A stretch of DNA of 24,000 bases from Halolamina pelagica (GCF_900115675.1 NZ_FOXI01000003.1:234767-258766); one strand, 5' to 3'. Numbered from the stretch's first letter, positions 698 through 21,848 are shown. Made by a program: numbers and translations. Notes: generated from the sequence alone by a model not told the origin.

Positions 698-1741
698 TTA
701 CTTCTGTACTGACCGATCTAATGATGAAGCGTGTATTCTAACGGTCCATTGACCGTCCTCGGCGTTTGGCTCCTCTATCACAAGTCGATCTTCAGAAAGA
801 GCACTGATAGGAGCGGAAACCTCTATATCATCGTCGAGCGATAAGACGACAGATTTTGGAGAGTAATCTGGATCGATACGGACATTAGCCTCATTCTGTT
901 CATAGAGCATATCTTCTACCTCCTGTTCCTCATAGTCCTCACCTAATATACGACGAGCCCCTTCGTGTACATCCTCGTTAGTCGCAATATCATCACCCAC
1001 GCTCGTAATTACGCTCTCAAACTCTCGTATCTCGTCTGGACGGAGACCAGCCCCTGTCTTTTCCTCTTTTAGATCACTCAGCCCATTGATGATCGTTTTC
1101 ATCTGATCCAAACTCGCGCTACTTGTTAGACATCCCAAGAAGTCCTCAAAGTATTCGGATGGAGCGTCTTCCTGGAGGAACTTCACGTCACCAGTGAGCC
1201 CAAATTTCTCGGACTGAAAAACTGGATAAGTGCCGCCCTTCTGTAGACTCTCAGCCTCAGGAAGTGCTCGATTGAGTTCTTCGTATTTGAGCTCGTTTGT
1301 GTCTTCTTCTAAAACGGAGCGTTGCTCATCATTAAGATCGAGCTTGAGAAGTCCAACGAATTGTTCACCACCTCGTTCAGCAAGAATCGTGAAAAGCACT
1401 CCATCAGAAGATCGAGCATCCATCTCTCCTTTCAGACGGTTAGCTAATTTCAGCGAAAGCTCCTCAAACCGATCATAATTCTCGGAGTCTTCCTCTAAGT
1501 CTAATTCCATCTCCTTGATTTCGTCCAGCCAGTGCTGTATTCCCCCATCGTTCTCGTCGTCATCGAAGTGTCCAATTCCGACTTTTTGGGTGTCTCGCTT
1601 GTTTATAATCGTAGTTAGGTATTCTCGAAAAATATCTAAGATGCCATCACCGATTGTAACATCGCGCGAACTTTGTAGCCATTCTTCATCTATGTCGTTT
1701 CCAACCGGTGAGTAAGCGATCCCATGAATATTGATAGTCAT
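698..1741 (-). CDS. NA37/NdpA(YejK)-like nucleoid-associated-protein-family protein (tentative)
   Basis: 347-aa ORF with a true ATG start (1741-1739). It resembles E. coli YejK along its length by eye: N-terminal MTINIHGIAY (YejK MSLDINQIALH), DGVLFTILAERGGEQFVGLLKLDL (YejK [22 protein letters not shown]), and EYFEDFLGC (YejK ADFFMDFLGA). It has its own TATA-like box at 1766-1772. Confidence 0.6.
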   Translation of the reverse strand: MTINIHGIAYSPVGNDIDEEWLQSSRDVTIGDGILDIFREYLTTIINKRDTQKVGIGHFDDDENDGGIQHWLDEIKEMELDLEEDSENYDRFEELSLKLANRLKGEMDARSSDGVLFTILAERGGEQFVGLLKLDLNDEQRSVLEEDTNELKYEELNRALPEAESLQKGGTYPVFQSEKFGLTGDVKFLQEDAPSEYFEDFLGCLTSSASLDQMKTIINGLSDLKEEKTGAGLRPDEIREFESVITSVGDDIATNEDVHEGARRILGEDYEEQEVEDMLYEQNEANVRIDPDYSPKSVVLSLDDDIEVSAPISALSEDRLVIEEPNAEDGQWTVRIHASSLDRSVQK

Positions 1742-1920: not shown

Positions 1921-4900
1921 CTACGTAGTATCGAACGTCACCTGTGACATCAGCCCGGGTCGGTCGTTCTGATCGTCTTGATCTTCCTCGGGAGCCACAA
2001 TCATCCAACAGACCAACTTCACCTCGTCTTCCTCAATCGGTGGGAGTGGATCAGGAGCCTCGAACGGCTGTAGCCCCAATTCCTCTACCTTGTCGACCAG
2101 CTCCCGTGACTTTTCGATAGGGCCGAGAGACTCGTCCTCGTAGATTTCTCGAAGCTCACGTTCGTACTTGCGACCCCACGGAGCCTCTACAGCCTCCACA
2201 GTCTCTTGAAGCTCGTCCTGGGTCATATCATCCGGCCAGTGGTCACGGAGATGTTGGCCCACCTCACGGAACAGTCGGCGGATGTCAGGCTGGACGTTCA
2301 ACGGGTCCGTTTGCTCTTGCCACTGACGATAGATGTCCTCCTGTGCCGTCTCCCACGCTTCGTAGATTTGGTCTCGCATTCCATCTGGGAGAGCCCGTTC
2401 AGTATCACGAGAGCATTCGATGCGCTTCAGACAGGTCAGAGTGTCCTGAACCAGTTCGTCGTCCCCATCCATCTCGTGTGGGACGAACCGCATGAAGACC
2501 TCGTCCCCGACCCGAGCACAGAAGAAATAGCCCGGGTCTTCACCGCGGAATCCAGACCCAGCGGCCCACGGAAGTGACGTGATCTGATCCTCACGGTCCT
2601 CCAGTCCCTCGCGGAGTTCCTGGCGATATTCCTCCCCGGAATACGCCGCCGCTTCAGCCCCGCCTTGTTCGTAGAAATCCGATTCCTCCCGCTGGATCGA
2701 GTCTATTTCTTCGACCTTCTCCGCGAAGTTCTGATTGAGGGTATCCATATCCGGTATAACGCCCCCACTCACGCCGATTGAGCGGGCCGCCTGGGTGAGT
2801 TTCTCCCGAACCCGGTGTTCGAGCTCAAGAAGATCGTCCAGTCGATCCTCGGGGAAGAACGAGAATGGATAGATTTCCGAGTGCGGGGAATTAACGCGGT
2901 CGATACGTCCGTTCCGCTGAACGACGCGCATCGGGTTCCACGGGAGGTCGTAGTTGATGACGTTTCGCGCCTCTTGGAGGTTGACCCCCTGACCCAGGAC
3001 GTCCGTCGCAATCAGAATATCAAACTCGTCCGTGGCATCCGGTGGGGCGTCACCTGAGTTCGGTGCAAATCCGTGGACAGCTTCCTCTCGTGTGACGCCG
3101 TACTTCGAGCCGTCGCCGGACACAGCGGCAATGCGGCCCTCGTAACACGACAAGTCTTCGTCCTCGCTGACGATGGACTCCAGGTACTCGTAAATCCAAT
3201 CGACGGTGTCCTCGTAGTAGGAGAACAATAGCACCTTGCGGTTCTGGCGGAAGGCCGCCTCAACATCCTCATCCGAAATCTGTCGCGCCTCAGCGTCCTC
3301 TCTCGCTGTCTCAACGATGTCCTCAAGCGTATCACGGAGCGCATAGAGTTTCTCGTCATCTTCTCGGCTGACCGCCTGGGCTCCGTCGCGCCATCGCTCC
3401 AGTATCTCGATGTCGTGCTCAAGATCAGCCCGAAGCTCGGCGGGATCAGCATCCGCCGCCGCCAGCGAGATATTTCCGTCGGTCGCGTCATCCAACAGCT
3501 CCTCCATCCCTTCATCGCTGTCCGTCTCAACCCACTCATCAATCGCATTCGTCTCCGGGAAGTAGCCCTCGTCCATAAGTTGGAGCGCGATGCGATTTTG
3601 CGAGATCATCCCGTCGAGGGTGTTCTTGAAAGCGTAGCTTGACGACTCGAACCGTTTCAGGAGCCCCGTCCGCAACAGCCCGACCAAGGAAAGTTCAGAT
3701 GCGTCCTCCTCGCCCTCTAAGTAGTAGGACGGTCGGTAACGGGCCAGCGTGAGCTCAGCTTCGTCCCTGTCCCCAGCCGCCAGCCCTTCCGCGACGTCGA
3801 GGAAATAGTCGTCACCAAACGTCTCTGTGAACGTGTAGTCGACACGCTTGGGCTTCGGATCCGGGAAATTAATCCGCACTTCGCCGCCGTCGCCATCAGG
3901 CATCGTCGCGTTCTCATAGTGGTTCTTGATGAACCGCCGAGTCCGGCGTACCGTCGTCTGGTCGAGAATGTCAAACAGCATATCTGGACTGAGATCCGAC
4001 GGGTCCTCCGCCTGGGCTTGCTTGAACTGGTCTCGAAGCGACCGGATACCCTCGTTGGCAAAGGTAGCGTCGTTCCGGATGAAATAATTCAGGAGGTAGT
4101 ACAGGTCCCACAGTGAGTTGTTGACCGGCGTGGCCGTGAGCATAACAACGTCCTTTGGCGGATCTCCCCGGAGGAGCGTCCGGAGTGCGTGGGATTGCTG
4201 GGTGCCAGGGTTGCGGAACGCATGAGCCTCGTCAATAACGACCAACTGATACTCGTCGACGGGAAGACTGAGATTGTTGGCGTCCCCACCGAGTTGGCTG
4301 TCGTTCCGGAGTTCAGCGTAGGATACCGTCTCAAATTGCACACCCCACTCGGCTGGCTTCTGTGTCCACATCCCGTCCCTGAGATACGCCGGTGCGACGA
4401 CGAGTGCACGCTGTCGGTTCTCCTGGACGTACTGTTCGAGGAGCTTGCCCCCGATATACGTCTTCCCGAGTCCGACCTCATCGGCAATGATGACGCCGTT
4501 GTGCTTGTCGAGGAACCGATTTGCTCTCCTGACGCTGTCCTGTTGGAAATTGGTGAGGTTGATCGCACCCCCGTCGTCCTCTCGTTCCTCCTCCAGTTCA
4601 TCACCGTACCGTTCGTAGAGCACCCGGAGGTAGATTAGGTGTGGATCGTAGGGCTCGAATCGTTCCTCGTAGAGACTGGCGAGGTCGAACGGTTCGCTTT
4701 CTTCCCAGAGGTCTTCGAACCAGTCGTTGATGCGTTCGGTTACGTGAGGGTCGTAAGTGCCGAGGTTCAGCTCCAGATTCGAGTTCAGTCCCGCGCCGGT
4801 GAAGTTCGATGACCCAGCAATCGCTCCCTGGCTGTCCGAGAACAAGTATGCCTTCCCGTGGACGAAGCTATCCTCGTGGCGGCGCACCTCAACGCGGTCG

Positions 4901-5292
4901 CTCCGGAGGAAATCCACGAGTTCCTGAAGTCCTTGGTCGACATCCCGCGAGAAACCAAGCAAGTCTCGGTCACGTTCGAGATTCTGATCCAGCGTCTGGA
5001 GTGCTTCCTCGATACGCTTGCGTTCATACGCTTCCCCTCGTGGTTCCTCAGGTTGTCGCCAGCGTTCCTTGCCTTCCTGATCGGGTTGAGCCCCGATGAG
5101 GAGATGGACCTGATCGACGTGTTCCAGCCCCTCAGCGACTGAAAAGTACCCTCTTGGGTTGAAGTAGCCGGTGACAATGTCGAGGTTGGGGTCGTTAGCC
5201 AGCCGATCATCCAAGTCCGAGAGATAGGCGTTGATTGCGGCGGCAAGCGTATTGCCGTCTCGGTTGTCGACGACTTGCGGCTGTTCAGTCAT
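1921..5292 (-). CDS. PLD-family (HKD) nuclease domain fused to an SNF2/SF2 helicase-ATPase
   Basis: There is a single HKD motif, HGKAYLFSD...GSSNFT (nt ~4800-4860). The SNF2 motifs are DEVGLGKT (4459-4482), VVIDEAHAFRN (DEAH at 4219-4233), LTATPVNN, and DVLGQGVNLQ...NYDLPWNPMRVVQRNGRIDR. The ORF-track start at 5325 is GTG. I prefer the ATG at 5292-5290 (MTEQPQVV...), which overlaps the upstream methyltransferase stop as ATGACTGA, giving 1123 aa. Confidence 0.9.
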   Translation of the reverse strand: MTEQPQVVDNRDGNTLAAAINAYLSDLDDRLANDPNLDIVTGYFNPRGYFSVAEGLEHVDQVHLLIGAQPDQEGKERWRQPEEPRGEAYERKRIEEALQTLDQNLERDRDLLGFSRDVDQGLQELVDFLRSDRVEVRRHEDSFVHGKAYLFSDSQGAIAGSSNFTGAGLNSNLELNLGTYDPHVTERINDWFEDLWEESEPFDLASLYEERFEPYDPHLIYLRVLYERYGDELEEEREDDGGAINLTNFQQDSVRRANRFLDKHNGVIIADEVGLGKTYIGGKLLEQYVQENRQRALVVAPAYLRDGMWTQKPAEWGVQFETVSYAELRNDSQLGGDANNLSLPVDEYQLVVIDEAHAFRNPGTQQSHALRTLLRGDPPKDVVMLTATPVNNSLWDLYYLLNYFIRNDATFANEGIRSLRDQFKQAQAEDPSDLSPDMLFDILDQTTVRRTRRFIKNHYENATMPDGDGGEVRINFPDPKPKRVDYTFTETFGDDYFLDVAEGLAAGDRDEAELTLARYRPSYYLEGEEDASELSLVGLLRTGLLKRFESSSYAFKNTLDGMISQNRIALQLMDEGYFPETNAIDEWVETDSDEGMEELLDDATDGNISLAAADADPAELRADLEHDIEILERWRDGAQAVSREDDEKLYALRDTLEDIVETAREDAEARQISDEDVEAAFRQNRKVLLFSYYEDTVDWIYEYLESIVSEDEDLSCYEGRIAAVSGDGSKYGVTREEAVHGFAPNSGDAPPDATDEFDILIATDVLGQGVNLQEARNVINYDLPWNPMRVVQRNGRIDRVNSPHSEIYPFSFFPEDRLDDLLELEHRVREKLTQAARSIGVSGGVIPDMDTLNQNFAEKVEEIDSIQREESDFYEQGGAEAAAYSGEEYRQELREGLEDREDQITSLPWAAGSGFRGEDPGYFFCARVGDEVFMRFVPHEMDGDDELVQDTLTCLKRIECSRDTERALPDGMRDQIYEAWETAQEDIYRQWQEQTDPLNVQPDIRRLFREVGQHLRDHWPDDMTQDELQETVEAVEAPWGRKYERELREIYEDESLGPIEKSRELVDKVEELGLQPFEAPDPLPPIEEDEVKLVCWMIVAPEEDQDDQNDRPGLMSQVTFDTT

Positions 5293-8200
5293 CGTTTCTG
5301 GTGCCAGCCGCTTGTTCTTCCTCACGGTCGGTGTGATCGAGGTCCAGTCTATCCGCCCAACTCGCGTAGTAATCGAGAACGCGTTCTAATCGTTCCTCAT
5401 AATCCCATCCGTTATGGAAGGTCTCAAAGATGACCTCAACGTGCTCGCGAGTCAGCCCATAGAGGTGTGCGACTACAGCATCCAGCTCGTAGATTTTCTC
5501 CTGTTTCGTTTCTTCGTCAAGTGGGCCGTATTCGACATCAACTGTATCCGCCCAGTCCTCGTAACGATCATCGACGGCGGCAAGTCGGCCGGAGAGTTCA
5601 GTAACACGTTGGCGGAGCTCATCATTGCGCCCTGGGCGAGGGACCGGGAGGGCATTTAGGATATGATATTTCAGGTGTGTCTCAACGAACCTTCGGACAT
5701 ACCAATCGAATGGAATTGAACTCATTATACCAAGTAGATACGCTTCATCTCTCTCATCCCCACTGGGCCAGATGAAATATGGTGCCATCTCCACTAAGAA
5801 TACCTCTGGCGGGAGGAGTGAGGGTATACATGTTCTTGTATCTGTACTTCGGGCTACATCTCGGAAGGTAAGTCGAGGTTCAAAACAGGAAAGCGTATTC
5901 CTGTCATTCACCCATTCTTCCGGCATATCAGAGAATGGAGAGCGGGATCCAGCGTATTGATATGAGTTTTCTCTTTTCTCCTGTACGTAATCGATCATAA
6001 CATCTGGATCCGCCCACCCGTACCTAACACCTGTATCCGGCTCCCAAATATTGAATGACCCTCCTTTGAAAATTGGCCAATAACTATCAGCGGGATCGTC
6101 AGTGAAATGCATCAGTTGGGTGCCATCGTCTTTTTTCTTATCTTGAGTTGAGTGGAGCTCGGTGTTTGGAACAACATTCCACTCACCATCGGAATCCAGA
6201 CGTGGATGCCGCGCCATTACTCCAAACACTTCTCCTGTTTCTGGGACAGCGGGTAATAGAGGGAAAGAAGAACTATCTGTCCAGTGTTTTGCCCGGGATT
6301 GGTCGAAGTAGTGAGGCTCCTCATTCACACCTTTCTCGAAGGCCTCTATGCTCGGAAATGGCCCTCTAAGCGGTAGCGGCGTATCATCTGAAGGCGTTTC
6401 CTTCTTGAAACTAGTAAGGGCGATTGTATATTGTGGATGGACTTCAGAGAATATCCAATTTTGATTATTAACTAAGAACGTGATATCTTTCACAACTGAC
6501 TCTTCGAGGATTTTCTTCCTGAATTGCTCTGTTGCGGGGCCAACAAACGCACTTCTCGGTAGAACTACGCCGACATGTCCCTTCTTGGAAACGAGATGCC
6601 AAAACCGCCAACAAAACGCCACATACATATCTGGATCGCCACCGCCGATGCCTGGATAAGGACCCTCAGTAAGCATCTTAGCACGTTTCTCCTCCTCTAA
6701 TTTCTCGCTTTTCAGCTCCTCTACGAGATCTGGGCGCTCACTTTCGAGTTCATCAATACGCTCCTCGCGTTTAGTTGAGGAAAGACCACGGAGTCCGGGG
6801 TAATGCCTTGCCCAAAACTCGTGCCTCTCCAGCTTTGCTTTTTCCCATGGCGGGTTTCCAACAACAACATCAAATCCTGGGTTTTCGGTGTCAAAAACTT
6901 CAGGAAATGCTGTGGGAAAATGGAGTGGACTCGTCGACTCCAGTACTTTTTGAGCTTGCTTATAAGCATCCGTTTTTCTAATCTGTATACTGGTGTCCGA
7001 AACCGGTTCAGTATCTATACTTTCATCAATTCGGGATGCGGCCAGTACATCGAATCGTGCCCTAACTTCCTCTAATTTCTCCTCGATCTCGGCCCGGGTT
7101 TCTCGGGCTTCTTGCACCTGTTCAGCACTGGCGTCAGCAAAGTTTCCGAGACGAGAAATGTCTTCTCGAATCTCGTTCATTACACTCTGACCTCCAGCGA
7201 ACATACCCAGTGAGGATTGTTCTACGTCAAGAATATCTGTCACTTCTCCCAGTGTGCCAATTCCCGACAGTGAATCACCAGTCACGAGATTGTAATCGAG
7301 GAAGGTCAACGGGAGACCGGGGACAAACGTGTGAACCCAAATTGAAAGACGAGCCAACTCTGTGGCAAGTGGATTTAGGTCCGCACCGTAAACACAGCGT
7401 CGAGCAACCTGACGGCGGAGAAGTTGCCCTCGCTCGATATTGGGGGTGTATTCCTCATTTTCAAATGCATCTTCCGCGGCATCTCTGAGATTGTCGAGTT
7501 CTTTTTCGACTGGCGTGAGTTGGTTTTCAGTAAGGTATGCTCTGAGTCTCGTTTCAATCCGATCCACCGCTCCAACCAGGAAATGCCCCGACCCCATTGC
7601 GATGTCCGAGACACGAATATCGAAGAAAGCCTCCGCGGCGGCGTTCTCACCCTCCTCCTCACGTAGCCGGTCGATGCGTTCAATGTGATCGTCAAGTGCG
7701 GGCTCAAGCGAATTATCCAAGAGATGCTCGACGAACCTCGTCTTTGTGTAGTAGGTGCCAGTAGCCTTCCGCTCACCGGACTGGCCGTGGAGGTATACTT
7801 CACCCTTCTCAACTACAACGTTCTCATCGTCTTCCCCGAGCGTTTGCTGACCACCACTATCGACCGGCTTGTAGTGTCCTTTCTCGTCAGTCGTCAACGG
7901 CTGTTCCGCAACAGAGAGCTCTGATTCGAGGAGACCCTCGTAGATGACACCGAACTCTCGGACGCCAATGTTCCGGAAATCGACCGGTCCTTGGTACCCA
8001 TCTTCAGTCTCGTCAATGAGTAATCGGAATAGCACTGGGCCAAACTCGGCGTTGTTCAATCGGGTGTCCGAAAGCCGCGCACCCGCTTCGGAGACATCCT
8101 CATCTTCGGAGAGAATCCGCCCCTCGTAGGCGGGGAGTCCCATTTCCTCGTGACCGTGGTGGATAGCACGCGAGAGCCGCATCACATCGTCCCAGTGGTC

Positions 8201-9412
8201 GTAGAATGAGTCGTCAAACTCTCCGCCCTCCTGAACGAATTCGTGGAGATCGTGGGCCTTCTGTTTCAGCGAGTGTTGGTCGTAGCGACCGTTCCGCCGG
8301 CGGGGAAGAAACTCCTCGTCTTCGGCGTAAGCGATGAACAAGAGACGGTAGAGGAGAAAGAGCGCCATCTCGTAAGTCTGGTCGAGTTCCTCTTTCGTCG
8401 GGTCGTTGATGTCGCGTGCCTCGGCGATAGCCTCGGCGAGGTCGGGAATAACGTCGTCGTAGATGCGATTCCGGAGACGCCCACCGAGGTCAGCGGCGTA
8501 CTCCTTCGAGTCCTCCATAATCTGATGAAGGGCACCGTCGTCGCGGAGGGCATTCGCCGAGAACAACAGCCAGAGGTACGCCGCCTTCTCGTCGGCCAGG
8601 AGGTTCGTGTTCACCTCGACGTACGTGTCAGTCCGACCGCGTGAGCCGAAGCCAGCCTCCGGGTTCGTCGTATAGAGACGAAGCGTGTCACCGCTACTCC
8701 CGATGACGTAGTCCAGATTTCGCTTATCGGCCTCATTGAGTGCGTACGCTACCGGCGACTTGTTGACGAACCGATCTTGTTTGCGGTCGAATGACTCGTC
8801 TTCCTGGAGGAACATAGCCACGGCCCGCTCGTGGCCGTCACTGGTATCCTTGAGGACGTAGCTCTGGTCGGTAAGCCGGTCTATCTCGTAATTCAGCCCC
8901 TTCACCAAGTCTCGCGGGTCGTCCGTGAGTGCCTGTTGAGCGCGTTCAGTAGCATCGTCCCAATCGTCGCGTTCGGGGACACCAACCCTGAGTTCGTGCG
9001 TCGATAAGAGGCCTTGGTTCCGTAGGCCCGCAAGTTCCTCGTCAAGCTGTGGGAGCGTGTTAGAAAGGAACGACTGAGCGACGTGTCGATCTGGCTTTTT
9101 CAGAGCGGCGTCACAGACGCGCTCAGCTTGGCCGCGGTCGACGTCACGAAACACGGGCGGGTCTTCGCCGCTTGGCCCACACAGGCCGACCTTGTCATCG
9201 TATAGCGCGACCACGAGAATCGGGTTGACCCGACCGCCTCGCCGGTCGGTGTAGGTTCGCTGGAGGAAATCCTTGTTCGGCCGTTCGCCGTGATCGACGA
9301 CGACAATCTCTAACGCACTGGATCCTTCGCCTTGATAGAACTCAAATTCGGCGTCCGTCCTATCGTAAGACCAAGGACGACCATCGCGAGATTGGAGGAA
9401 ACCTGAAGACAT
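5285..9412 (-). CDS. Large gamma-class N6-adenine DNA methyltransferase, Eco57I/PglX-like (Type IIG/ISP-like MTase-TRD protein)
   Basis: SAM-binding motif I is DIAMGSGHFLVG (nt 7577-7606). Catalytic motif IV is VVVGNPPW (NPPW at 6845-6856). About 520 aa follow motif IV, leaving room for a TRD. The helical block LFLLYRLLFIAYAEDEEFLP and the C-terminal LNALPVP...YELDAVVAHLYGLTREHVEVI are typical of this family. The ORF-track start at 9484 is GTG. I prefer the ATG at 9412 (MSSGFLQSRDG...), which has a TATA box about 27 nt upstream, giving 1375 aa. No nuclease motif is visible in the N-terminal ~600 aa. Confidence 0.88.
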   Translation of the reverse strand: MSSGFLQSRDGRPWSYDRTDAEFEFYQGEGSSALEIVVVDHGERPNKDFLQRTYTDRRGGRVNPILVVALYDDKVGLCGPSGEDPPVFRDVDRGQAERVCDAALKKPDRHVAQSFLSNTLPQLDEELAGLRNQGLLSTHELRVGVPERDDWDDATERAQQALTDDPRDLVKGLNYEIDRLTDQSYVLKDTSDGHERAVAMFLQEDESFDRKQDRFVNKSPVAYALNEADKRNLDYVIGSSGDTLRLYTTNPEAGFGSRGRTDTYVEVNTNLLADEKAAYLWLLFSANALRDDGALHQIMEDSKEYAADLGGRLRNRIYDDVIPDLAEAIAEARDINDPTKEELDQTYEMALFLLYRLLFIAYAEDEEFLPRRRNGRYDQHSLKQKAHDLHEFVQEGGEFDDSFYDHWDDVMRLSRAIHHGHEEMGLPAYEGRILSEDEDVSEAGARLSDTRLNNAEFGPVLFRLLIDETEDGYQGPVDFRNIGVREFGVIYEGLLESELSVAEQPLTTDEKGHYKPVDSGGQQTLGEDDENVVVEKGEVYLHGQSGERKATGTYYTKTRFVEHLLDNSLEPALDDHIERIDRLREEEGENAAAEAFFDIRVSDIAMGSGHFLVGAVDRIETRLRAYLTENQLTPVEKELDNLRDAAEDAFENEEYTPNIERGQLLRRQVARRCVYGADLNPLATELARLSIWVHTFVPGLPLTFLDYNLVTGDSLSGIGTLGEVTDILDVEQSSLGMFAGGQSVMNEIREDISRLGNFADASAEQVQEARETRAEIEEKLEEVRARFDVLAASRIDESIDTEPVSDTSIQIRKTDAYKQAQKVLESTSPLHFPTAFPEVFDTENPGFDVVVGNPPWEKAKLERHEFWARHYPGLRGLSSTKREERIDELESERPDLVEELKSEKLEEEKRAKMLTEGPYPGIGGGDPDMYVAFCWRFWHLVSKKGHVGVVLPRSAFVGPATEQFRKKILEESVVKDITFLVNNQNWIFSEVHPQYTIALTSFKKETPSDDTPLPLRGPFPSIEAFEKGVNEEPHYFDQSRAKHWTDSSSFPLLPAVPETGEVFGVMARHPRLDSDGEWNVVPNTELHSTQDKKKDDGTQLMHFTDDPADSYWPIFKGGSFNIWEPDTGVRYGWADPDVMIDYVQEKRENSYQYAGSRSPFSDMPEEWVNDRNTLSCFEPRLTFRDVARSTDTRTCIPSLLPPEVFLVEMAPYFIWPSGDERDEAYLLGIMSSIPFDWYVRRFVETHLKYHILNALPVPRPGRNDELRQRVTELSGRLAAVDDRYEDWADTVDVEYGPLDEETKQEKIYELDAVVAHLYGLTREHVEVIFETFHNGWDYEERLERVLDYYASWADRLDLDHTDREEEQAAGTRNDD

Positions 9413-9437
9413 GTTTACACCAGTTGAGTGGACGGCT

Positions 9438-9444
9438 GATATAG
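9438..9444 (-). promoter_or_regulatory. TATA box (CTATATC on the gene strand) for the methyltransferase/helicase transcription unit
   Basis: CTATATC is centred about 29 nt upstream of the ATG at 9412. This fits a leaderless mRNA and supports 9412 over the GTG at 9484 as the start. Confidence 0.45.
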
Positions 9445-9695
9445 TTTGGTGGTGAAACTCTAAGGCGGAGAGGCAATTGACCACATTTGTCGGGTGGGGA
9501 AAACCGATGAGAATCTTCCCTTGGTGACATCCTGATAGTCATCATTCATTCAATATATCGGTGATAGCCTATTCACCCTCTACTCTGGCGTACATACAGT
9601 CACCACTCTGTTGCCTGTACTTACGGTATCAGCTTACAGGTCCGAACAAGTAGCTATCGGAAAGCACTCTACAATTCCTTTCATTCGGTATACCT

Positions 9696-10295
9696 CTAGA
9701 TGACAGTATGAATTTGTGAAGTGATGTTTGCGAAAGCCTCAGAAGCGGCATCAAGATCAGTAACCCCTGTACAAAGTAACTTCCCACTCGCAAATACGAG
9801 AATAATATGATCGGAGCCACGGTACACCAACGCGGGGAACTGTTCCGGCTCGTATTCCGCGGTATTCATCCCCAACTCAAGAGTAAGAAGTTCCAGCGGT
9901 ATTGGTGAGCCGAAGTCGGTCGTAGCTACGATGTTGTTGATCTCGGTCGCTGGTTTGTAATCGAACTTCAGAATATCACGCATCACTCCATTTATTTGCT
10001 CAGTTTTATTGTTGAATTCTTCTATTGAGCCACATCCTGTAATAGAACAACGGCCAGATCGATAGAATGCGACATATGTATTATCAGGCGGAAACCGAGT
10101 TTGAAGCCAGTGGTTTTGCGATGGTTCGTACGTTACACTGGTGACATCCTCGCGTTCAGAGAACGTTTCCGCTAAGGCCGCAAGATCCAGCTCTTGCCGG
10201 TATGTGATCATACCTGAGACGTTGGCGATCTTCAGGTCAACCACTATTCTGTCATAACCATTGGTGGTAATAAGAGAAGCGGGTTTAGTAGTCAC
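9696..10295 (-). CDS. tbp: Divergent TATA-box-binding protein (TBP) paralog
   Basis: A two-repeat TBP architecture is recognisable. The second repeat is canonical: INNIVATTDFGSPIPLELLTLELGMNTAEYEPEQFPALVYRGSDHIILVFASGKLLCTGV. The first repeat is degenerate: KIANVSGMITYRQELDLAALAETF...TYEPSQNHWLQTRFPPDNTYVAFYRSGRCSITGC. The start codon is GTG (10295-10293), and the first in-frame ATG would truncate repeat 1. The gene is AT-rich (33% GC in the 9961-10020 sample). Confidence 0.85.
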   Translation of the reverse strand: MTTKPASLITTNGYDRIVVDLKIANVSGMITYRQELDLAALAETFSEREDVTSVTYEPSQNHWLQTRFPPDNTYVAFYRSGRCSITGCGSIEEFNNKTEQINGVMRDILKFDYKPATEINNIVATTDFGSPIPLELLTLELGMNTAEYEPEQFPALVYRGSDHIILVFASGKLLCTGVTDLDAASEAFANITSQIHTVI

Positions 10296-10415: not shown

Positions 10416-11417
10416 CTACAGTTTCCGCCTGAGGGTGTCGACCGCCCCACTTTCGACGGTTAGAAACCAGACAGAAGGGTCCGAAGCGTCGGTGTTAGTG
10501 CTAATGTCTTCTGTCGAACCAGCGTAAAGGAACTCACCATCGTCCCAGTTCGGCCGCTCTGGATCGTGAAGGTGTCCAGACACTACGTAGTCGAAACCAC
10601 CGAACGGCTTGCTGTTAATTTCGTCTAAGTCTACATCCGCACCGGAGCGGAACGGGACAAGTGTCTGGTGTAGCACGAGGATCGAAACCGAACTCATCAG
10701 TAAAGTTGGCACGTCCATCTCCTCAACCGAGAATTTCGATCCGGGCCGGTGATCGTAACCATAGACTTTCAGGTCATCTGTAATGTCTGAGCCCTCCATA
10801 TCGAGGTGAGTTGCAACGCCTTGACGTTCCCATCGTTTGAGGAGACGAGTCCCACGATCGCACTCGTGATTTCCCAAGATATAGTAGAAATCAATACCGG
10901 CATCTTGCATCCGCTGGAACGCCGCATCAACAGTATTGCAATCCTCCTCGGTAGCGTAATCGTGAAACACGTCTCCAGTATGAAGTATGGAATCGGCGTC
11001 GTGGGCTATGGCAACCTCAATTGCCTGTTCGAATTTTCCAGCACAGTCAATCGATTGATGGGGCTTGCTGGGGTGTTTCTTTCGTCCAACGTGGCTATCG
11101 CCCATAACCATCAGACGACAATCCGGAGTGGAATCCACGCGGTCCGCGCCCCATTTGTCAGAGCTATGTAACTTCTTTTTCCGACCATTGTCCCACGTCT
11201 GTCCATACCCCTCCCGGATCACGTATTCCGCTCCTTCCACCCATTCTGTCAGCGGGTTATGCTTGTTCCAGATTTCCAGCTCAAACTGTTTCCCAGAGCT
11301 ATCTTCTACAGTAAGTCGCCAATCTAACTTCTCATCATTGTGATGAACCGCTTCAACAACAGTTACCGAGATAGAGTCGAGATAAGAACGATCATCAATT
11401 GCTTCCCAAGAGGACAT
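10416..11417 (-). CDS. OB-fold-like N-terminal domain fused to a calcineurin-like metallophosphoesterase (Mre11/SbcD-type nuclease fold)
   Basis: All phosphoesterase motifs occur in order: MGDSHVG, HTGDVFHD, LGNHECD, VLHQ, SGHLHD. The ~100 N-terminal residues (WRLTVEDSSGKQFELEIWNKH...YVIREG) look like a beta-rich OB-type module. ATG start at 11417. Confidence 0.85.
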   Translation of the reverse strand: MSSWEAIDDRSYLDSISVTVVEAVHHNDEKLDWRLTVEDSSGKQFELEIWNKHNPLTEWVEGAEYVIREGYGQTWDNGRKKKLHSSDKWGADRVDSTPDCRLMVMGDSHVGRKKHPSKPHQSIDCAGKFEQAIEVAIAHDADSILHTGDVFHDYATEEDCNTVDAAFQRMQDAGIDFYYILGNHECDRGTRLLKRWERQGVATHLDMEGSDITDDLKVYGYDHRPGSKFSVEEMDVPTLLMSSVSILVLHQTLVPFRSGADVDLDEINSKPFGGFDYVVSGHLHDPERPNWDDGEFLYAGSTEDISTNTDASDPSVWFLTVESGAVDTLRRKL

Positions 11418-16201: not shown

Positions 16202-16501
16202 TTACTCGTCCAGCTCAGTAAGCTTCCGTTCGCGTTCGACGTGATAGCCTATAGCGTCATCAGCGAGGTGAGAGAGCTTCGCGTCAGTCCGTTCGAGGAA
16301 CATCTGGTGAATATCGTCGATGACGATGGTGGTTCGGACATAGTCATTTTCTGGACTTCGCCGTGCGTCTTCTGACGGCATCTCTCGTTCATCGTTGTTG
16401 ATTGCCTCAATGTGTTGTCGGACGGCTCGGGAGAGCGACAAGGCACTTCCGTCTATGAATTTTTTGTGCGAAGTTTGGATGTTGATTGTCTTCTGGATCA
16501 T
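16202..16501 (-). CDS. Ribbon-helix-helix (CopG/Arc/MetJ-like) DNA-binding protein, possibly tandem RHH
   Basis: 99 aa with a true ATG. Strand-helix-helix patterns occur at KTINIQTSHKKFIDGSALSLSRAVRQHIEAI and again at RTTIVIDDIHQMFLERTDAKLSHLADDAIGYHV. A perfect palindrome lies directly upstream of its start. Confidence 0.65.
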   Translation of the reverse strand: MIQKTINIQTSHKKFIDGSALSLSRAVRQHIEAINNDEREMPSEDARRSPENDYVRTTIVIDDIHQMFLERTDAKLSHLADDAIGYHVERERKLTELDE

Positions 16502-19386: not shown

Positions 19387-20286
19387 CTAACTGATTTCGA
19401 TCTGGTTAGTGTATCCGAACTGTGTTCGTGGCGGACACCCATGAGCTATGTAGTGAGCGCCGATTAGATCACATTCGACCTCCCCACGCTTGTGAGATGC
19501 GTCAAGATCGGTCCGTGATGAGTATGAAAAGAGTGCATCGCCCCCGTAGGTACTTTCGTGCTTGTAGAGACGCCTACTGATGTTTGAACTCTCACCAATA
19601 TACGCAAGCGGTGGTGCATCTCCCTCATACCATATCCGGTAGAGGCCAACATCAGACGGATCAGCATCGAGGCGGTCAGCCAACCGATACGGCTCCGACC
19701 AATCGCTTGCCATCCAGTTCGGATCGGTTACAGTCTCGAAATTGACCCACGGTTCGGGAGAACGTCCAAGCTCGGCATTTGGTTCATTCTCCCCGTTGTT
19801 TAATGATCCACCGCGCACGCCACCGCTTCGGTACGAGGATTGCTGATAGCCGGAGATGATTCGCCCGAAGTTAGCCGGCGGACTTTCTCCAGCTTCCAAG
19901 CGATACGACGCGATGAGCGCGGCTTCCAAACCCTTGCGTTGCTGATCGTCAGCCGCATATTCCGGCGTCGTGTAAGAGAGTTCGAACCCTGGGCCATCAT
20001 CATCACGAATCGCCCACAGACAGGGAGCGGCGGTATGCGGATCGCGGAACGGCATCTCCGAATCGTGGACACGCCTTGCCAGCGCCCGAATACGATGCTG
20101 TGTGTCTCCTGACTCGCCGATGTAACTGAGTCCTTCTCGGTTCTGGTGCCGTACTCGATAGAGTCCAGGGGCATCAGGGGCGGTAGCGAGAGTATCAGCG
20201 TCCAAGTCCATCCACGGAGACCACTCGACACCACCCCACTCCGGGCCGTCGTAGTCTCGCCAACAGACAGGGGGCCGTTGTACCAT
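19387..20286 (-). CDS. Tandem GIY-YIG nuclease-domain protein
   Basis: There are two internally homologous modules. The first is GLYRVRHQNREGLSYIGESGDTQHRIRAL...GLEAALIASYRLEAGESPPANFG. The second is GLYRIWYEGDAPPLAYIGESSNISRRLYKH...GEVECDLIGAHYIAHGCPPRTQFG. Each carries GxY, YIG, the downstream Arg and the conserved Glu. True ATG start at 20286. Confidence 0.8.
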   Translation of the reverse strand: MVQRPPVCWRDYDGPEWGGVEWSPWMDLDADTLATAPDAPGLYRVRHQNREGLSYIGESGDTQHRIRALARRVHDSEMPFRDPHTAAPCLWAIRDDDGPGFELSYTTPEYAADDQQRKGLEAALIASYRLEAGESPPANFGRIISGYQQSSYRSGGVRGGSLNNGENEPNAELGRSPEPWVNFETVTDPNWMASDWSEPYRLADRLDADPSDVGLYRIWYEGDAPPLAYIGESSNISRRLYKHESTYGGDALFSYSSRTDLDASHKRGEVECDLIGAHYIAHGCPPRTQFGYTNQIEIS

Positions 20287-20422: not shown

Positions 20423-21673
20423 TCACCAGATTTGTTCAGCGGCGTCGTTCCGCGTTTCCGCGTCTGAGTGAAGATACTTCATCGTCGTCGTGACGCTCTT
20501 GTGGCGAAGTTGCTCCTTCGCGTGGTGCGGACCGATGTGATTCGCCCAGTATGTCGCAACCCCGTGACGAATCGCGTACCACGTTATGTCTTTGTGATCT
20601 GGGATAGGAAGATCACCGTCGTCGACGAGCCGACTCAGTAGGTAGTTACATGACTTCGAACTGTACGTAGTCCCTTGCTTCGTGAGCCAGAGCTCGTCCC
20701 GACCACTGTACTTGTCGTACGTTGCTCGTTCTTCTAACCATCGTTCAAGTACTCTTGCTGTGCGTCCCTTGATCGAACAGTTCCAGTGAGCTTCGTTCTT
20801 TGTGGACTCGTCCTTGGGGATGTTGAGCTCGTTGTTCTCAAGGTTAACCCAGTCTGTGGTAGCTCGGCCTACTTCGATGGGACGGAGTCCAGTATCAAGC
20901 GTTACAGCGATGATCGACGGTTCTTTCCAAGAGTTGGCCTGTTTGAATTGCTCAGGGCCGACCTCTGACTTTGGTACACCGAGTCGCTGAGAGACGAACG
21001 TCTTCAGCCGGTCACGCTCCTCAGAGGACATATCGCTATGGTAGCTCTTGATCGAGTTGTATTCCAGCGCCGCCTGATAGAGTGGCTTGAACGCGGTTCG
21101 GCGAAGATAGTCGCGTTCATCCCCGGTTGCTTGACTCAGTTCCGGCTTCGGTTCCCAGTCGTAATCCGTTCCGTGGATGTGGTTCTGGTACTTGAATAGC
21201 CGCTGGACAGCTTTCCCGTAGTGAAGTACGCTTGAATCAGCCATCCCATCTGAGCGGTTGAGGAGGCGGATAAAGCGGTCAGCGTGGTCGGGAGTAAACT
21301 CTGTCGTGTAGGCGTCTTCGTCTTCCCAGAGCCACCTGAATACGATTTCGAGCTTGTAGTGCGTCGACTGAAGGGTACTCTGTGCGAGGCCCTGGCCTTT
21401 CTCTGGGTGTTTCCCGTACGAGCCGAGCCACGAAAGTACCTCCTGTTTGAAGTCGCGGTAGTCGTCGACCATGTTGAGCCCGTATGCTTCGAGGTCTTCG
21501 CGTGATCGTTCACTAATGAGCGGGAAATCGAGTTCCACTGGTTCCGGAGCCGATGGAAGGCTGTCCTGAGGGGTGCCATCACCGGCGGGGAGGTTGTCCA
21601 GCGGATCGGGCTGGTTGGTCACCCGCGCACACCTCGATTTGTCTGTGTGCCATGACACTTTATCGAATCGCAA
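20423..21673 (-). CDS. int: Tyrosine recombinase / phage-type integrase
   Basis: The C-terminal catalytic region reads LDTGLRPIEV (Arg), WYAIRHGVATYW (HxxR) and LRHKSVTTTMKYLH (His and nucleophilic Tyr). It lies next to a tRNA 3' end. The start is uncertain: 21673 is TTG, and an in-frame GTG occurs at 21622. Confidence 0.9.
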   Translation of the reverse strand: MRFDKVSWHTDKSRCARVTNQPDPLDNLPAGDGTPQDSLPSAPEPVELDFPLISERSREDLEAYGLNMVDDYRDFKQEVLSWLGSYGKHPEKGQGLAQSTLQSTHYKLEIVFRWLWEDEDAYTTEFTPDHADRFIRLLNRSDGMADSSVLHYGKAVQRLFKYQNHIHGTDYDWEPKPELSQATGDERDYLRRTAFKPLYQAALEYNSIKSYHSDMSSEERDRLKTFVSQRLGVPKSEVGPEQFKQANSWKEPSIIAVTLDTGLRPIEVGRATTDWVNLENNELNIPKDESTKNEAHWNCSIKGRTARVLERWLEERATYDKYSGRDELWLTKQGTTYSSKSCNYLLSRLVDDGDLPIPDHKDITWYAIRHGVATYWANHIGPHHAKEQLRHKSVTTTMKYLHSDAETRNDAAEQIW

Positions 21674-21776
21674 GACGGCGCGGCTGTCGGGTTGTAGCGT
21701 TTTCGTACGTTATTGGACATCGTTTGGCTCTCCTGAGAAGGGCGAAATCAGCCGAGAGAGCCTGTAAGGCCGCTGA

Positions 21777-21848
21777 AGCCTAGGCCGGAATTTGAATCCG
21801 GGGTCTCGTCCTTACCAAGGACGCGCTTTACCGCTAAGCTACCCAGGC
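21777..21848 (-). tRNA. tRNA-Thr (anticodon GGU), 72 nt, no encoded CCA
   Basis: Hand-folded cloverleaf on the minus strand. The acceptor is GCCTGGG/CCTAGGC (one G-U pair). The D arm is GCTT-AGCGGTA-AAGC. The anticodon arm is CGTCC-TTGGTAA-GGACG, with GGT at positions 34-36. The variable loop is AGACC. The T arm is CCGGA-TTCAAAT-TCCGG. The discriminator is T. Confidence 0.9.

What the first reader, a model, noticed from the sequence alone, without database searches (positions are those of the whole stretch)
1921..9484. Translationally coupled giant m6A methyltransferase + PLD::SNF2 fusion: split Type ISP-like / DISARM-like defence candidate
Seen in sequence: a ~1375-aa ORF carries gamma-class MTase motif I (DIAMGSGHFL, nt 7577-7606) and motif IV (NPPW, nt 6845-6856). 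About 520 aa follow motif IV (TRD-sized). Its ~600-aa N-terminal region shows no PD-(D/E)xK, HNH or other nuclease motif that I can see. Its TGA (5285-5287) overlaps the ATG (5292-5290) of a ~1123-aa ORF as ATGACTGA. That ORF fuses one HKD/PLD nuclease motif (HGKAYLFSD..GSSNFT) to a complete SNF2 motor (DEVGLGKT, DEAH, LTATP, QRNGRIDR). Established knowledge: Type ISP enzymes (LlaGI/LlaBIII) combine nuclease, SF2 translocase, gamma-MTase and TRD in a single chain. Class 1 DISARM combines an SNF2 protein (DrmD), an adenine MTase (DrmMI) and a PLD protein (DrmC), but its core also needs DrmA (helicase) and DrmB (DUF1998). Inference: here nuclease+motor sit on one polypeptide and MTase+TRD on the other. 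PLD takes the place of the Mrr nuclease, and no DrmA/DrmB, PglZ or BrxC is present in the window. The pair could be a minimal two-component translocating restriction-modification system, or a fused DrmC-DrmD variant not described as such.
Basis: partly seen in the sequence, partly recalled or inferred. Interest (0 to 1): 0.85.

Follow-up and report, generated by a model that had tools for sequence, protein, structure and literature searches.

The report
Two-gene methylase plus PLD-SNF2 restriction module
A giant DNA adenine methylase and a nuclease-motor fusion protein form a tightly linked gene pair found in many archaea and bacteria; it is probably an unnamed, untested kind of ATP-driven restriction-modification defence that databases currently file as a one-protein "Type IIG" enzyme.

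Summary
A 1375-aa Eco57I-family N6-adenine methyltransferase (9412..5285, minus strand) overlaps by 8 nt (ATGACTGA) a 1123-aa protein made of one HKD/PLD nuclease domain and a complete SNF2 ATPase (5292..1921).

The two genes are an obligate pair. In all 51 related loci with enough upstream DNA, from haloarchaea to Acidobacteria, Actinomycetes, Chloroflexota and Nitrosopumilaceae, a full-length methylase homologue lies upstream on the same strand. No third gene is conserved. DrmA/DrmB, PglZ, BrxC and DUF499 are absent from the whole ~26.5-kb integrative element.

The methylase folds like BREX PglX/MmeI (helical spacer, gamma-class MTase, C-terminal TRD). It also has a family-specific 280-aa N-terminal domain with no conserved nuclease residues. 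Its TRD half is mosaic and evolves independently of the partner, whereas its N-terminal half co-diverges with PLD-SNF2 (rho about 0.9).

[quoted passage not shown] The idea is not entirely new. HKD-SNF2 fusions in R-M contexts, class 1 DISARM and DUF499-centred BREX-related systems are already described. I found no name or experimental study for this two-gene form, which PADLOC labels "Type IIG". I rate it a new variant of a known kind, of moderate interest.

The parts
5285..9412 (-). Mod-like subunit: 1375-aa PglX/MmeI-like gamma-class N6-adenine methyltransferase with a C-terminal TRD
   Evidence: Translation. Pfam Eco57I 1.7e-18. PADLOC PDLC03620 'REase_MTase_IIG' matches full length at 1.5e-258. 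The AF2 model of aa 281-1375 has pLDDT 85, and its best PDB fold matches are BrxX/PglX (E 4e-17), then CamA, MmeI and BpuSI.
8573..9412 (-). Family-specific N-terminal domain (aa 1-280): two alpha/beta subdomains with no conserved nuclease triad
   Evidence: AF2 pLDDT 89. Across 86 sequences E35 is the only invariant acidic residue and there is no invariant K. Foldseek finds no PDB or BFVD hit with E<=0.001, only weak REase-like hints. No nuclease Pfam family matches any of 21 members at E<=5. The domain occurs in 629 clusters at 50% identity, and in the full-length (~1320-1430 aa) proteins it sits at the N-terminus.
7793..8572 (-). Helical spacer domain (aa 281-540)
   Evidence: All-helical in the model. 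Two members give weak MmeI_hel matches. It aligns with the PglX N-terminal region in whole-length Foldseek matches.
6803..7792 (-). Methyltransferase core (aa 541-870), with motif I (nt 7577-7606), motif IV NPPW (nt 6845-6856) and a helical insertion of about 115 aa between them
   Evidence: Motif residues are invariant.
6094..6811 (-). Swapped, hypervariable target-recognition segment (aa ~867-1106)
   Evidence: This is the only part of the two-gene module with no nucleotide similarity to the otherwise 82-84% identical cassette in L085. Identity to the nearest homologue falls from 95-98% to 57-58% here. GC dips to 0.48 against about 0.58 in the rest of the operon. The region is beta-rich in the model.
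5285..5292 (-). 8-nt stop/start overlap ATGACTGA, indicating translational coupling
   Evidence: Overlaps of 4 or 8 nt recur in Haloplanus, Halorubrum, Natronococcus, Salinibacter and several bacterial loci.
1921..5292 (-). Res-like subunit: 1123-aa HKD/PLD nuclease fused to an SNF2 ATPase, plus a conserved C-terminal domain
   Evidence: PADLOC C3a139 'HKD+Snf2' at 5e-59.
4693..5190 (-). Single-HKD PLD nuclease domain (aa ~35-200); the HKD...GSSN motif lies at nt 4798-4860
   Evidence: PLDc_2 1e-10 and the RE_NgoFVII PLD domain 5.5e-5. Y43-F-N45, H145/K147 and G160-S-S-N163 are invariant.
2743..4563 (-). SNF2 ATPase (aa 244-850): Walker A nt 4459-4473, DEAH nt 4222-4233, motif VI QRNGRIDR nt 2896-2919
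   Evidence: SNF2-rel_dom, ResIII and Helicase_C. ISWI, Snf2 and RapA are the nearest solved sequences. Motifs are invariant.
1924..2742 (-). Conserved C-terminal region of PLD-SNF2 (aa 851-1123), fold not determined
   Evidence: Many invariant residues, for example L907-P-W909, G912-S-G914, C954 and C960. No Pfam hit.
20423..21848 (-). Context: tyrosine integrase and tRNA-Thr attachment site of the ~26.5-kb integrative element that carries the module
   Evidence: A 44-bp att repeat (41/44 identical) is found again about 4.7 kb left of window position 1. GC jumps from about 0.55 to 0.69 at about 21.7 kb.

Best explanation
The two genes encode a self-contained, two-subunit, ATP-dependent restriction-modification system. 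Its logic is that of Type III (Mod + Res) or split Type ISP enzymes, but it is built from different families.

The upstream protein is the modification-and-specificity subunit. It has a PglX/MmeI-like architecture: a helical spacer, a gamma-class N6-adenine methyltransferase and a C-terminal TRD. It reads a short, probably asymmetric, DNA motif and methylates the host's copies.

The downstream protein is the restriction subunit. An SNF2 dsDNA translocase carries a single-HKD PLD nuclease.

Inferred steps: the 280-aa N-terminal domain and the N-terminal half of the methylase dock the PLD-SNF2 subunit. When the complex meets an unmethylated site, ATP hydrolysis drives translocation or looping. 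A single HKD domain supplies only half of a PLD active site, so cutting would need two nuclease domains to come together, for example when two complexes converge. The TRD half is exchanged between systems by recombination to change specificity.

Shown: domain content, intact catalytic motifs, obligate gene linkage, co-divergence and TRD mosaicism. Inferred: physical complex, methylation-sensitive restriction, translocation and dimerisation-dependent cleavage.
For: Domains and intact catalytic motifs.

Obligate pairing: 51 of 51 informative loci across at least 10 phyla have the full-length methylase directly upstream on the same strand. Three look-ups starting from the methylase each found the partner, with 4- to 8-nt overlaps. 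No third gene family recurs.

The module moves as a cassette. Nucleotide similarity to a viral-collection contig covers 1928-9383 (with the TRD-segment gap at 6094-6811) and stops at the ends of the two genes. The flanks differ in every genome examined.

Co-divergence: pairwise identities of methylase aa 1-715 track those of PLD-SNF2 (Spearman 0.81-0.92). Those of aa 831-1375 do not (0.29-0.53).

TRD mosaicism.

Methylase fold: BrxX/PglX E 4e-17, then MmeI and BpuSI.

No nuclease in the methylase.

Defence context: the module sits on an integrative element. Neighbours include GmrSD. In some relatives, SIR2-HerA, Schlafen-like ATPases, HNH or IrrE genes are inserted between the two genes.

Established knowledge: single-HKD nucleases (Nuc, BfiI) act as dimers that form one active site; SNF2 enzymes are dsDNA translocases; Type III Mod carries specificity for Res.

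Literature: HKD + helicase fusions have been predicted to be restriction subunits (PMC10853773, PMC12839542, PMC3417536).
Against: No experiment exists for any member that I could find. In class 1 and class 2 DISARM the PLD protein DrmC was dispensable for defence (bioRxiv 10.1101/2021.12.28.474362), and BREX does not obviously degrade DNA. A PLD domain next to a PglX-like methylase therefore does not guarantee cleavage-based restriction. The canonical HKD aspartate is not conserved in this family. The N-terminal methylase domain gives weak REase-like fold hints, so a cryptic activity cannot be fully excluded. The co-divergence also reflects simple co-inheritance. Physical interaction was not modelled.
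Confidence: 0.65

Rival explanations
1. An ordinary single-chain Type IIG restriction-methylase, as PADLOC and REBASE-style labels say, that happens to lie next to an unrelated helicase.
For: PADLOC model PDLC03620 'REase_MTase_IIG' matches the full length at 1.5e-258. The fold is related to MmeI and BpuSI. The N-terminal domain gives weak REase-like hints.
Against: The N-terminal 280 aa contain no invariant D...(D/E)xK, HNH or GIY-YIG residues across 86 sequences. No nuclease Pfam family matches and no significant structural match exists. PLD-SNF2 is linked in 51 of 51 loci, with overlapping stop and start codons and co-divergence at rho about 0.9.
Confidence: 0.05
2. A fragment or peripheral module of a larger known system: class 1 DISARM, BREX, or a DUF499-centred BREX-related/Hma system.
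For: PADLOC and NCBIfam give partial hits to DrmD, DrmMI, PglX, BrxH and HmaA. The methylase fold is closest to PglX. Type-2 BREX-related systems use an HKD-SNF2 helicase plus an N6-MTase (PMC12839542).
Against: All these hits are far below the curated cutoffs: DrmD 158 against 610 bits, and BREX-1 PglX 37 against 500. No DrmA, DrmB/DUF1998, PglZ, BrxC, DUF499 or DUF3780 occurs in the ~26.5-kb element. None appears as a recurrent neighbour in 78 loci. BREX-related methylases have DUF1156 and an internal TRD insert, unlike this one (PMC12839542).
Confidence: 0.05
3. A methylation-guided but non-degradative exclusion or epigenetic system. The methylase marks self DNA. The SNF2 motor blocks or remodels foreign DNA replication (BREX/DISARM-like) or helps methylation. 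The PLD domain is auxiliary or acts on another substrate.
For: The closest fold is BREX PglX. DrmC (PLD) is dispensable in DISARM (bioRxiv 10.1101/2021.12.28.474362). The HKD aspartate is not conserved.
Against: The H, K, and GSSN residues of the PLD site are invariant over very large distances and the domain is never lost in the family. Fusion of nuclease and motor is the hallmark of the restriction subunits of Type I, III and ISP enzymes. No other effector is conserved.
Confidence: 0.17
4. Primarily a selfish addiction cassette that stabilises the mobile element carrying it, rather than a host antiviral system.
For: The module lies on an integrase/tRNA-Thr integrative element, on plasmids and on contigs of a viral collection. 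It moves as a precise two-gene cassette.
Against: This does not exclude restriction, because it needs the same biochemistry. Many copies lie in chromosomal defence-island-like contexts with GmrSD, SIR2-HerA and similar genes.
Confidence: 0.08

Closest known systems
Type III restriction-modification systems (Mod + Res, e.g. EcoP15I)
   Same: There are two subunits, with the mod-like gene upstream of and overlapping the res-like gene. Mod carries the MTase and the specificity. Res is an SF2 ATPase fused to the nuclease. Restriction is presumably ATP-dependent and sensitive to methylation.
   Different: Here the Mod-like protein is a 1375-aa gamma-class Eco57I/PglX-like enzyme, not a beta-class N6_N4 MTase. 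The motor is SNF2, not a Res-type helicase. The nuclease is an N-terminal single-HKD PLD domain, not a C-terminal PD-(D/E)xK. The match is analogy of logic, not membership.
BREX methyltransferase PglX/BrxX, and Type IIL/IIG enzymes MmeI and BpuSI
   Same: These are the best structural matches for methylase aa 281-1375 (Foldseek E 4e-17 to 1e-9). They share the layout of helical domain, gamma-MTase and C-terminal TRD. Like PglX, the protein appears to lack an active nuclease.
   Different: PglZ, BrxC, BrxA, BrxB and BrxL are absent. NCBIfam BREX MTase models score far below cutoff. An extra 280-aa N-terminal domain is unique to this family. The MmeI nuclease domain is absent.
Class 1 DISARM (DrmD SNF2 + DrmMI adenine methylase + DrmA/DrmB/DrmC)
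   Same: An SNF2 protein is adjacent to a giant Eco57I-type adenine methylase, and a PLD domain is present. PADLOC DrmD and DrmMI models give partial hits.
   Different: The DISARM core DrmA and DrmB (DUF1998) is absent from the element and from all related loci. PLD is fused to the SNF2 protein rather than being a separate DrmC. The DrmD equivalog score is 158 against a cutoff of 610, and the DrmC score is 20 against 133. The DrmMI similarity is limited to the MTase core.
Type-2 DUF499-centred BREX-related systems, which extend the 'Hma' system (Rakesh & Krishnan, NAR 2026, PMC12839542)
   Same: The effector is an N-terminal HKD endoDNase fused to a Swi2/Snf2 helicase, paired with an N6-adenine methylase, and predicted to be an RM-like defence.
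   Different: Those systems are defined by a DUF499 AAA+ ATPase and, for Type-2, a DUF3780 protein. Their methylase has DUF1156 and an internal TRD insert. None of these features is present here. The PADLOC HmaA hit is only 79 bits.
Type ISP enzymes (LlaGI, LlaBIII)
   Same: The same four activities are present: nuclease, SF2 ATPase, gamma-MTase and TRD. The likely logic is translocation followed by collision.
   Different: Type ISP enzymes are a single polypeptide with an Mrr-like PD-(D/E)xK nuclease and a Type I-like helicase. Here there are two polypeptides with PLD and SNF2, and no sequence relationship was detected to any solved structure.

Membership tests
Type IIG R-M (single-chain REase-MTase-TRD) | Gamma-class N6-adenine MTase and TRD in one polypeptide | tested here: met
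   Pfam Eco57I and N6_Mtase. The fold matches MmeI, BpuSI and PglX. The C-terminal segment is variable.
Type IIG R-M (single-chain REase-MTase-TRD) | Endonuclease domain with catalytic residues in the same polypeptide | tested here: not met
   No invariant D/(D/E)xK, HNH or GIY-YIG residues in aa 1-280 across 86 sequences. No nuclease Pfam family at E<=5 in 21 members. No Foldseek hit with E<=0.001 in PDB or BFVD.
Type IIG R-M (single-chain REase-MTase-TRD) | Match to a database model labelled Type IIG | tested here: met
   PADLOC PDLC03620 matches at 1.5e-258 over the full length. This is a label only, not evidence of nuclease activity.
Type ISP | Nuclease, ATPase, MTase and TRD in a single polypeptide | tested here: not met
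   There are two ORFs with a stop/start overlap, and they are separate genes in all relatives.
Type ISP | Mrr-like PD-(D/E)xK nuclease and Type I-like SF2 helicase | tested here: not met
   The nuclease is PLDc_2 and the motor is SNF2.
Type ISP | ATP-driven translocation with collision-dependent cleavage | not testable with these tools
   Needs biochemistry.
Class 1 DISARM | Core genes drmA (helicase) and drmB (DUF1998) | tested here: not met
   Absent from the window and from 10 kb further left. No recurrent third gene in 78 loci.
Class 1 DISARM | DrmD and DrmC equivalogs | tested here: not met
   NCBIfam DISARM_DrmD scores 158 bits against a cutoff of 610. DrmC_I scores 20 against 133.
Class 1 DISARM | DrmMI adenine methylase | tested here: inconclusive
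   The PADLOC DrmMI hit (1e-71) is confined to the MTase core, aa 529-858. The N- and C-terminal regions are not matched.
BREX | PglX-type methyltransferase | tested here: inconclusive
   The structure is closest to BrxX/PglX (E 4e-17), but NCBIfam BREX-1, -2 and -6 MTase models score 16-37 bits against cutoffs of 400-900.
BREX | PglZ phosphatase and BrxC ATPase | tested here: not met
   Neither is present in the element or the related loci.
DUF499-centred BREX-related (Hma) systems, Type-2 | [quoted passage not shown] | tested here: met
   The architecture is the same. Sequence similarity to HmaA is weak (79 bits).
DUF499-centred BREX-related (Hma) systems, Type-2 | DUF499 AAA+ ATPase and DUF3780 protein in the locus | tested here: not met
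   No such Pfam hits in the window or in L079. No recurrent third gene.
DUF499-centred BREX-related (Hma) systems, Type-2 | Methylase with DUF1156 N-terminus and an internal TRD insert | tested here: not met
   This is an Eco57I/MmeI-type methylase with a C-terminal TRD.
Type III R-M | Two subunits: Mod (MTase + specificity) upstream of Res (SF2 ATPase + nuclease) | tested here: met
   Gene order, overlap and domain content.
Type III R-M | Beta-class Mod MTase and a Res with a C-terminal PD-(D/E)xK nuclease | tested here: not met
   The methylase is gamma-class Eco57I-type, and the nuclease is an N-terminal PLD domain.

The most novel reading that the evidence does not exclude
This is a distinct, widespread and so far unnamed class of two-subunit ATP-dependent restriction-modification enzyme: a PglX-like Mod with a private N-terminal docking domain, and an HKD-SNF2 Res. 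Databases mis-file it as single-chain Type IIG. It would cleave unmodified DNA only when SNF2-driven translocation brings two half-site PLD domains together. It could represent the minimal stand-alone form of the methylase + SNF2 module that class 1 DISARM, Type-3 BREX and the DUF499 BREX-related systems elaborate. The gap between its two genes would also serve as an insertion site for other defence genes.
Probability: 0.4. Interest if true: 0.65.

Novelty: new variant of a known kind. Interest (0 to 1): 0.52.

Why it matters
If confirmed, several hundred "Type IIG" annotations in REBASE- and PADLOC-style resources would need to be re-read as the Mod subunit of a two-protein system. Halobacteria are reported to carry more than one "Type IIG" gene per genome (PMC10609329), so the effect there would be noticeable.

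The system would add an SNF2-driven, PLD-cutting enzyme to the ATP-dependent restriction classes. It would also give a minimal two-gene model for how PglX-like methylases talk to SNF2 motors, a question still open for BREX and DISARM.

Homologous pairs occur in culturable haloarchaea, for example on Halorubrum lacusprofundi pHLAC01 and in Haloplanus natans. That makes the hypothesis directly testable. The readily swapped TRD may also be useful for engineering specificity.

Tried and rejected
1. A PD-(D/E)xK site in the methylase N-terminus. 'EIVVVD...ALYDDK' looked like a candidate on first reading. Neither the D nor the DDK is conserved, so I rejected it.

3. Sequence and profile searches of the methylase against PDB found only a marginal CamA hit.

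4. A third conserved gene. All-against-all clustering of ORFs from 78 loci gave only shadow ORFs, generic housekeeping families (ABC, SDR, ADH), and sporadic defence genes.

5. NA37-like and downstream genes as partners. They are absent next to the pair in the other haloarchaea examined, and they have no PADLOC hits.

6. Identity of the PADLOC model 'C3a139'. It is merely an HKD+Snf2 cluster seen near Type III CRISPR loci (PMC6546367), not a defined system.

7. The rest of the island gave no megablast match in the plasmid collection. No close relative was found in deposited phage genomes.

8. I did not attempt promoter analysis, because haloarchaeal promoters are not covered by the tool. I only noted a TATA-like 'ACTATATC' about 30 nt upstream of the ATG.

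Full report
**1. Observation**

The window contains two long minus-strand ORFs, 5285..9484 and 1921..5325. Homologue N-termini and an independent gene call on a public contig place the starts at ATG 9412 (1375 aa) and ATG 5292 (1123 aa). The methylase stop and the downstream start overlap as ATGACTGA at 5285-5292.

- Motif I, DIAMGSGHFL, is aa 603-612 (nt 7577-7606).
- Motif IV, NPPW, is aa 853-856 (nt 6845-6856), and 519 residues follow it.
- HGKAYLFSD...GSSNFT, DEVGLGKT, DEAH, LTATP and QRNGRIDR are all in the second protein.

Pfam assigns Eco57I and N6_Mtase to the first protein. It assigns PLDc_2, SNF2-rel_dom, ResIII and Helicase_C to the second. The catalytic residues of all three enzymatic modules are invariant in alignments of 21 (methylase) and 30 (PLD-SNF2) homologues down to 48-50% identity.

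**2. Genomic setting**

GC content is 0.46-0.59 up to about 21.7 kb and then jumps to 0.69. A tRNA-Thr gene (21777-21848, minus strand) lies next to a tyrosine integrase (20423-21673).

A public contig carrying the same locus (L079) extends the view about 9.3 kb to the left of the window. A 44-bp imperfect copy (41/44) of the 3' part of the tRNA lies about 4.7 kb left of window position 1. The pair is therefore cargo of a ~26.5-kb integrative element in a high-GC haloarchaeon.

Pfam and PADLOC scans of the other genes of the element found no DrmA, DrmB/DUF1998, PglZ, BrxC, DUF499 or DUF3780. Those genes are:
- an NA37-like protein;
- four ORFs of unknown function to the left;
- a TBP paralogue and a metallophosphatase;
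- DUF6908, DUF6166 and SWIM-like proteins;
- a 618-aa ORF of unknown function;
- a protein resembling the FokI cleavage domain;
- a GIY-YIG protein.

**3. Is the pair a unit?**

Both proteins have over 100 full-length homologues in haloarchaea, Nanohaloarchaea, Salinibacter, Chloroflexi and other groups. The contig lengths in the two hit lists coincide.

I searched the 78 loci returned with HMMs for four regions of the methylase. In all 51 loci with enough upstream sequence, a homologue carrying all four regions lies upstream on the same strand. In some it is split by frameshifts. These include the N-terminal domain (except in the two Nitrosopumilaceae loci, where it scored below threshold). 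The loci include Longimicrobiales, Phycisphaerae, Acidobacteria, Acidimicrobiia, Actinomycetes, Chloroflexota and Nitrosopumilaceae.

Look-ups starting from the methylase side (Salinibacter, Halorubrum sp. BV1, Natronococcus) each found the PLD-SNF2 gene, overlapping by 4-8 nt. The same holds for Haloplanus natans, Halorubrum ezzemoulense and Halorubrum lacusprofundi pHLAC01. In a nanohaloarchaeon the two genes are adjacent with a 2-nt gap rather than overlapping.

All-against-all clustering of the ORFs in the 78 loci found no third conserved gene. The next recurrent real families are generic (ABC, SDR, ADH) or sporadic defence genes such as GmrSD. Nucleotide similarity between the window and a 95%-related copy in a viral-collection contig covers 1928-9383, apart from the swapped TRD segment (6094-6811), and stops at the ends of the two genes. 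The module therefore moves as a cassette.

**4. The methylase**

An AlphaFold2 model of aa 281-1375 (pLDDT 85) matches BREX BrxX/PglX over its whole length (Foldseek E 4e-17). CamA, MmeI (Type IIL), BpuSI (Type IIG), M.BseCI and M.TaqI follow. The architecture is a helical spacer, a gamma-class MTase and a C-terminal beta-rich TRD.

The first 280 residues form two alpha/beta subdomains (pLDDT 89). This domain is specific to the family. It occurs in 629 clusters at 50% identity, and in the full-length (~1320-1430 aa) proteins it sits at the N-terminus.

I tested this domain as a possible nuclease, and the results were negative:
- The superficially PD-(D/E)xK-like 'VVVD...YDDK' is not conserved.
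- E35 is the only invariant acidic residue, and no lysine is invariant.
- No nuclease Pfam family matches any of 21 members, even at E<=5. MmeI_Mtase matches weakly in 20 of them and MmeI_hel in two.
- Foldseek finds nothing with E<=0.001 in PDB or BFVD. The best weak hits are REase-like: HsdR, splicing endonuclease, CinB, and a phage protein containing a 'Type I R protein N-terminal domain' at E 0.011.

My reading is that this is at most an inactivated REase-like fold. The 'REase_MTase_IIG' label of the matching PADLOC model (1.5e-258) is an annotation convention, not evidence of a nuclease.

**5. Specificity module and co-evolution**

Against its nearest homologue, the window's methylase is 95-98% identical over aa 1-540. 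It is only 57-58% identical over aa 831-1110. This segment coincides with a GC dip to 0.48. It also coincides with the only stretch (nt 6094-6811) that has lost nucleotide similarity to the L085 cassette.

I compared pairwise identities across 32 intact pairs. Methylase aa 1-715 correlates with PLD-SNF2 at Spearman 0.81-0.92. Methylase aa 831-1375 correlates at only 0.29-0.53. The N-terminal half is therefore inherited, and probably functions, together with the motor-nuclease. The TRD half is shuffled, as in Type I S subunits and MmeI-type enzymes.

**6. The PLD-SNF2 protein**

The protein has one HKD motif. H145, K147 and G160-S-S-N163 are invariant, whereas the canonical aspartate is not. 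It also has a complete SNF2 ATPase and a conserved 270-aa C-terminal region of undetermined fold.

By established knowledge, single-HKD nucleases such as Nuc and BfiI dimerise to form one active site. This suggests that cleavage needs two Res subunits to meet.

**7. Mechanism**

The best-supported model is a two-subunit ATP-dependent R-M system with Type III-like logic, as set out in the Best explanation section.

- Shown: domain content, intact active sites, obligate linkage, translational coupling, co-divergence, TRD exchange, and a mobile or defence-island context.
- Inferred: formation of a complex through the methylase N-terminal half, methylation-sensitive triggering, SNF2 translocation, and dimerisation-dependent PLD cleavage.

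The main uncertainty is whether the system degrades DNA at all. Its nearest structural relative, PglX, belongs to BREX, which does not obviously degrade DNA. In addition, the DISARM PLD protein is dispensable for defence (bioRxiv 10.1101/2021.12.28.474362).

**8. Comparison with known systems**

- Type IIG: the nuclease criterion fails.
- Type ISP: it is not a single chain, and it has neither an Mrr-like nuclease nor a Type I-like helicase.
- Class 1 DISARM: DrmA and DrmB are absent, and the DrmD model scores 158 bits against a cutoff of 610.
- BREX: PglZ and BrxC are absent.
- DUF499-centred BREX-related systems (which extend Hma): their Type-2 form has an HKD-Swi2/Snf2 helicase plus an N6-MTase. 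However, it is defined by DUF499 and DUF3780 and uses a DUF1156 methylase with an internal TRD (PMC12839542).

The general idea that HKD domains fused to SWI2/SNF2 ATPases are restriction components of bacterial R-M systems was stated by Aravind and colleagues (PMC3417536; see also PMC10853773). An HKD+Snf2 cluster was also noted near Type III CRISPR loci (PMC6546367). REBASE-based surveys count this kind of methylase as Type IIG and do not mention a helicase partner (PMC10609329). RefSeq annotates the Halorubrum lacusprofundi pair as 'hypothetical protein' and 'helicase-related protein'. In the library available to me I found no paper that names or tests this two-gene system.

**9. Verdict**

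The claim of novelty should be moderated. This is a new variant of a known kind (ATP-dependent, helicase-nuclease R-M). It is widespread, mis-annotated and experimentally untouched. I set interest at about 0.5.

Noticed in passing
window 20423-21848; att copy at window 21777-21820 and L079 ~16400-16445: The finding lies on a ~26.5-kb integrative element. The element has a tyrosine integrase next to tRNA-Thr and is bounded by a 44-bp imperfect direct repeat (41/44) of the 3' part of the tRNA. GC content is 0.46-0.59 inside and 0.69 in the host flank.
   Followed up: partly
L006, L010, L015, L017, L023, L035, L038, L041, L047, L063 and others, between the methylase and PLD-SNF2 genes: In about 17 of 51 related loci, 0.7-6 kb of other genes is inserted between the two partners. 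The inserts include Schlafen AlbA_2/HATPase_c_4/Fic_C proteins, HNH, an IrrE-like M78 peptidase, an SMC-like AAA protein, SIR2+HerA and DUF4062. The gap between the two genes looks like a hotspot for defence-type cargo.
   Followed up: partly
L074 9866-19342; also L071, L072, L075, L078: A second, distantly related pairing exists in haloarchaea: a PLD-SNF2 protein (25-27% identity, 1282 aa) and an Eco57I-type methylase (1210 aa, lacking the N-terminal and helical regions). The two genes are convergent, with a NucS_C-like gene between them and no DUF499. This suggests the PLD-SNF2/methylase association arose or diversified more than once.
   Followed up: partly
L083 11991-13820; L139 14329-16038; L006 2416-4224; L008 2955-5141; L040 13303-15459: GmrSD-family Type IV restriction genes, some with a RAMA domain, recur next to the pair in unrelated genomes.
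   Followed up: no
window 17917-19266 (+) and 19387-20286 (-): Two further nuclease-like genes sit beside the integrase. One is a 449-aa protein with weak similarity to the FokI cleavage domain (3e-5). The other is a 299-aa protein with a GIY-YIG motif and a weak PADLOC PDC-S14 hit. They could be another defence or homing function of the element.
   Followed up: no
window 9696-10295 (-) and 10416-11417 (-): The mobile element encodes its own TATA-binding protein paralogue (TBP, 4e-32) and a calcineurin-like metallophosphatase, directly upstream of the methylase gene.
   Followed up: no
window 698-1741 (-) and L079 11054-16091: An NA37-like (nucleoid-associated) 347-aa protein and four ORFs with no family matches (565, 177, 354 and 499 aa) fill the left end of the element. 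They are not conserved next to the pair in other genomes.
   Followed up: partly
window 5500-7000: A local GC dip (0.48 against 0.58 in the rest of the operon) marks the recombined TRD-coding segment of the methylase gene.
   Followed up: yes
L085 (IMGVR_UViG_3300027007_000012), L086, L087: Full methylase + PLD-SNF2 cassettes occur on three contigs of a viral-genome collection, one of them 95% identical at protein level. The flanks are unrelated to the window. I did not check whether these contigs are true viruses or other mobile elements.
   Followed up: partly
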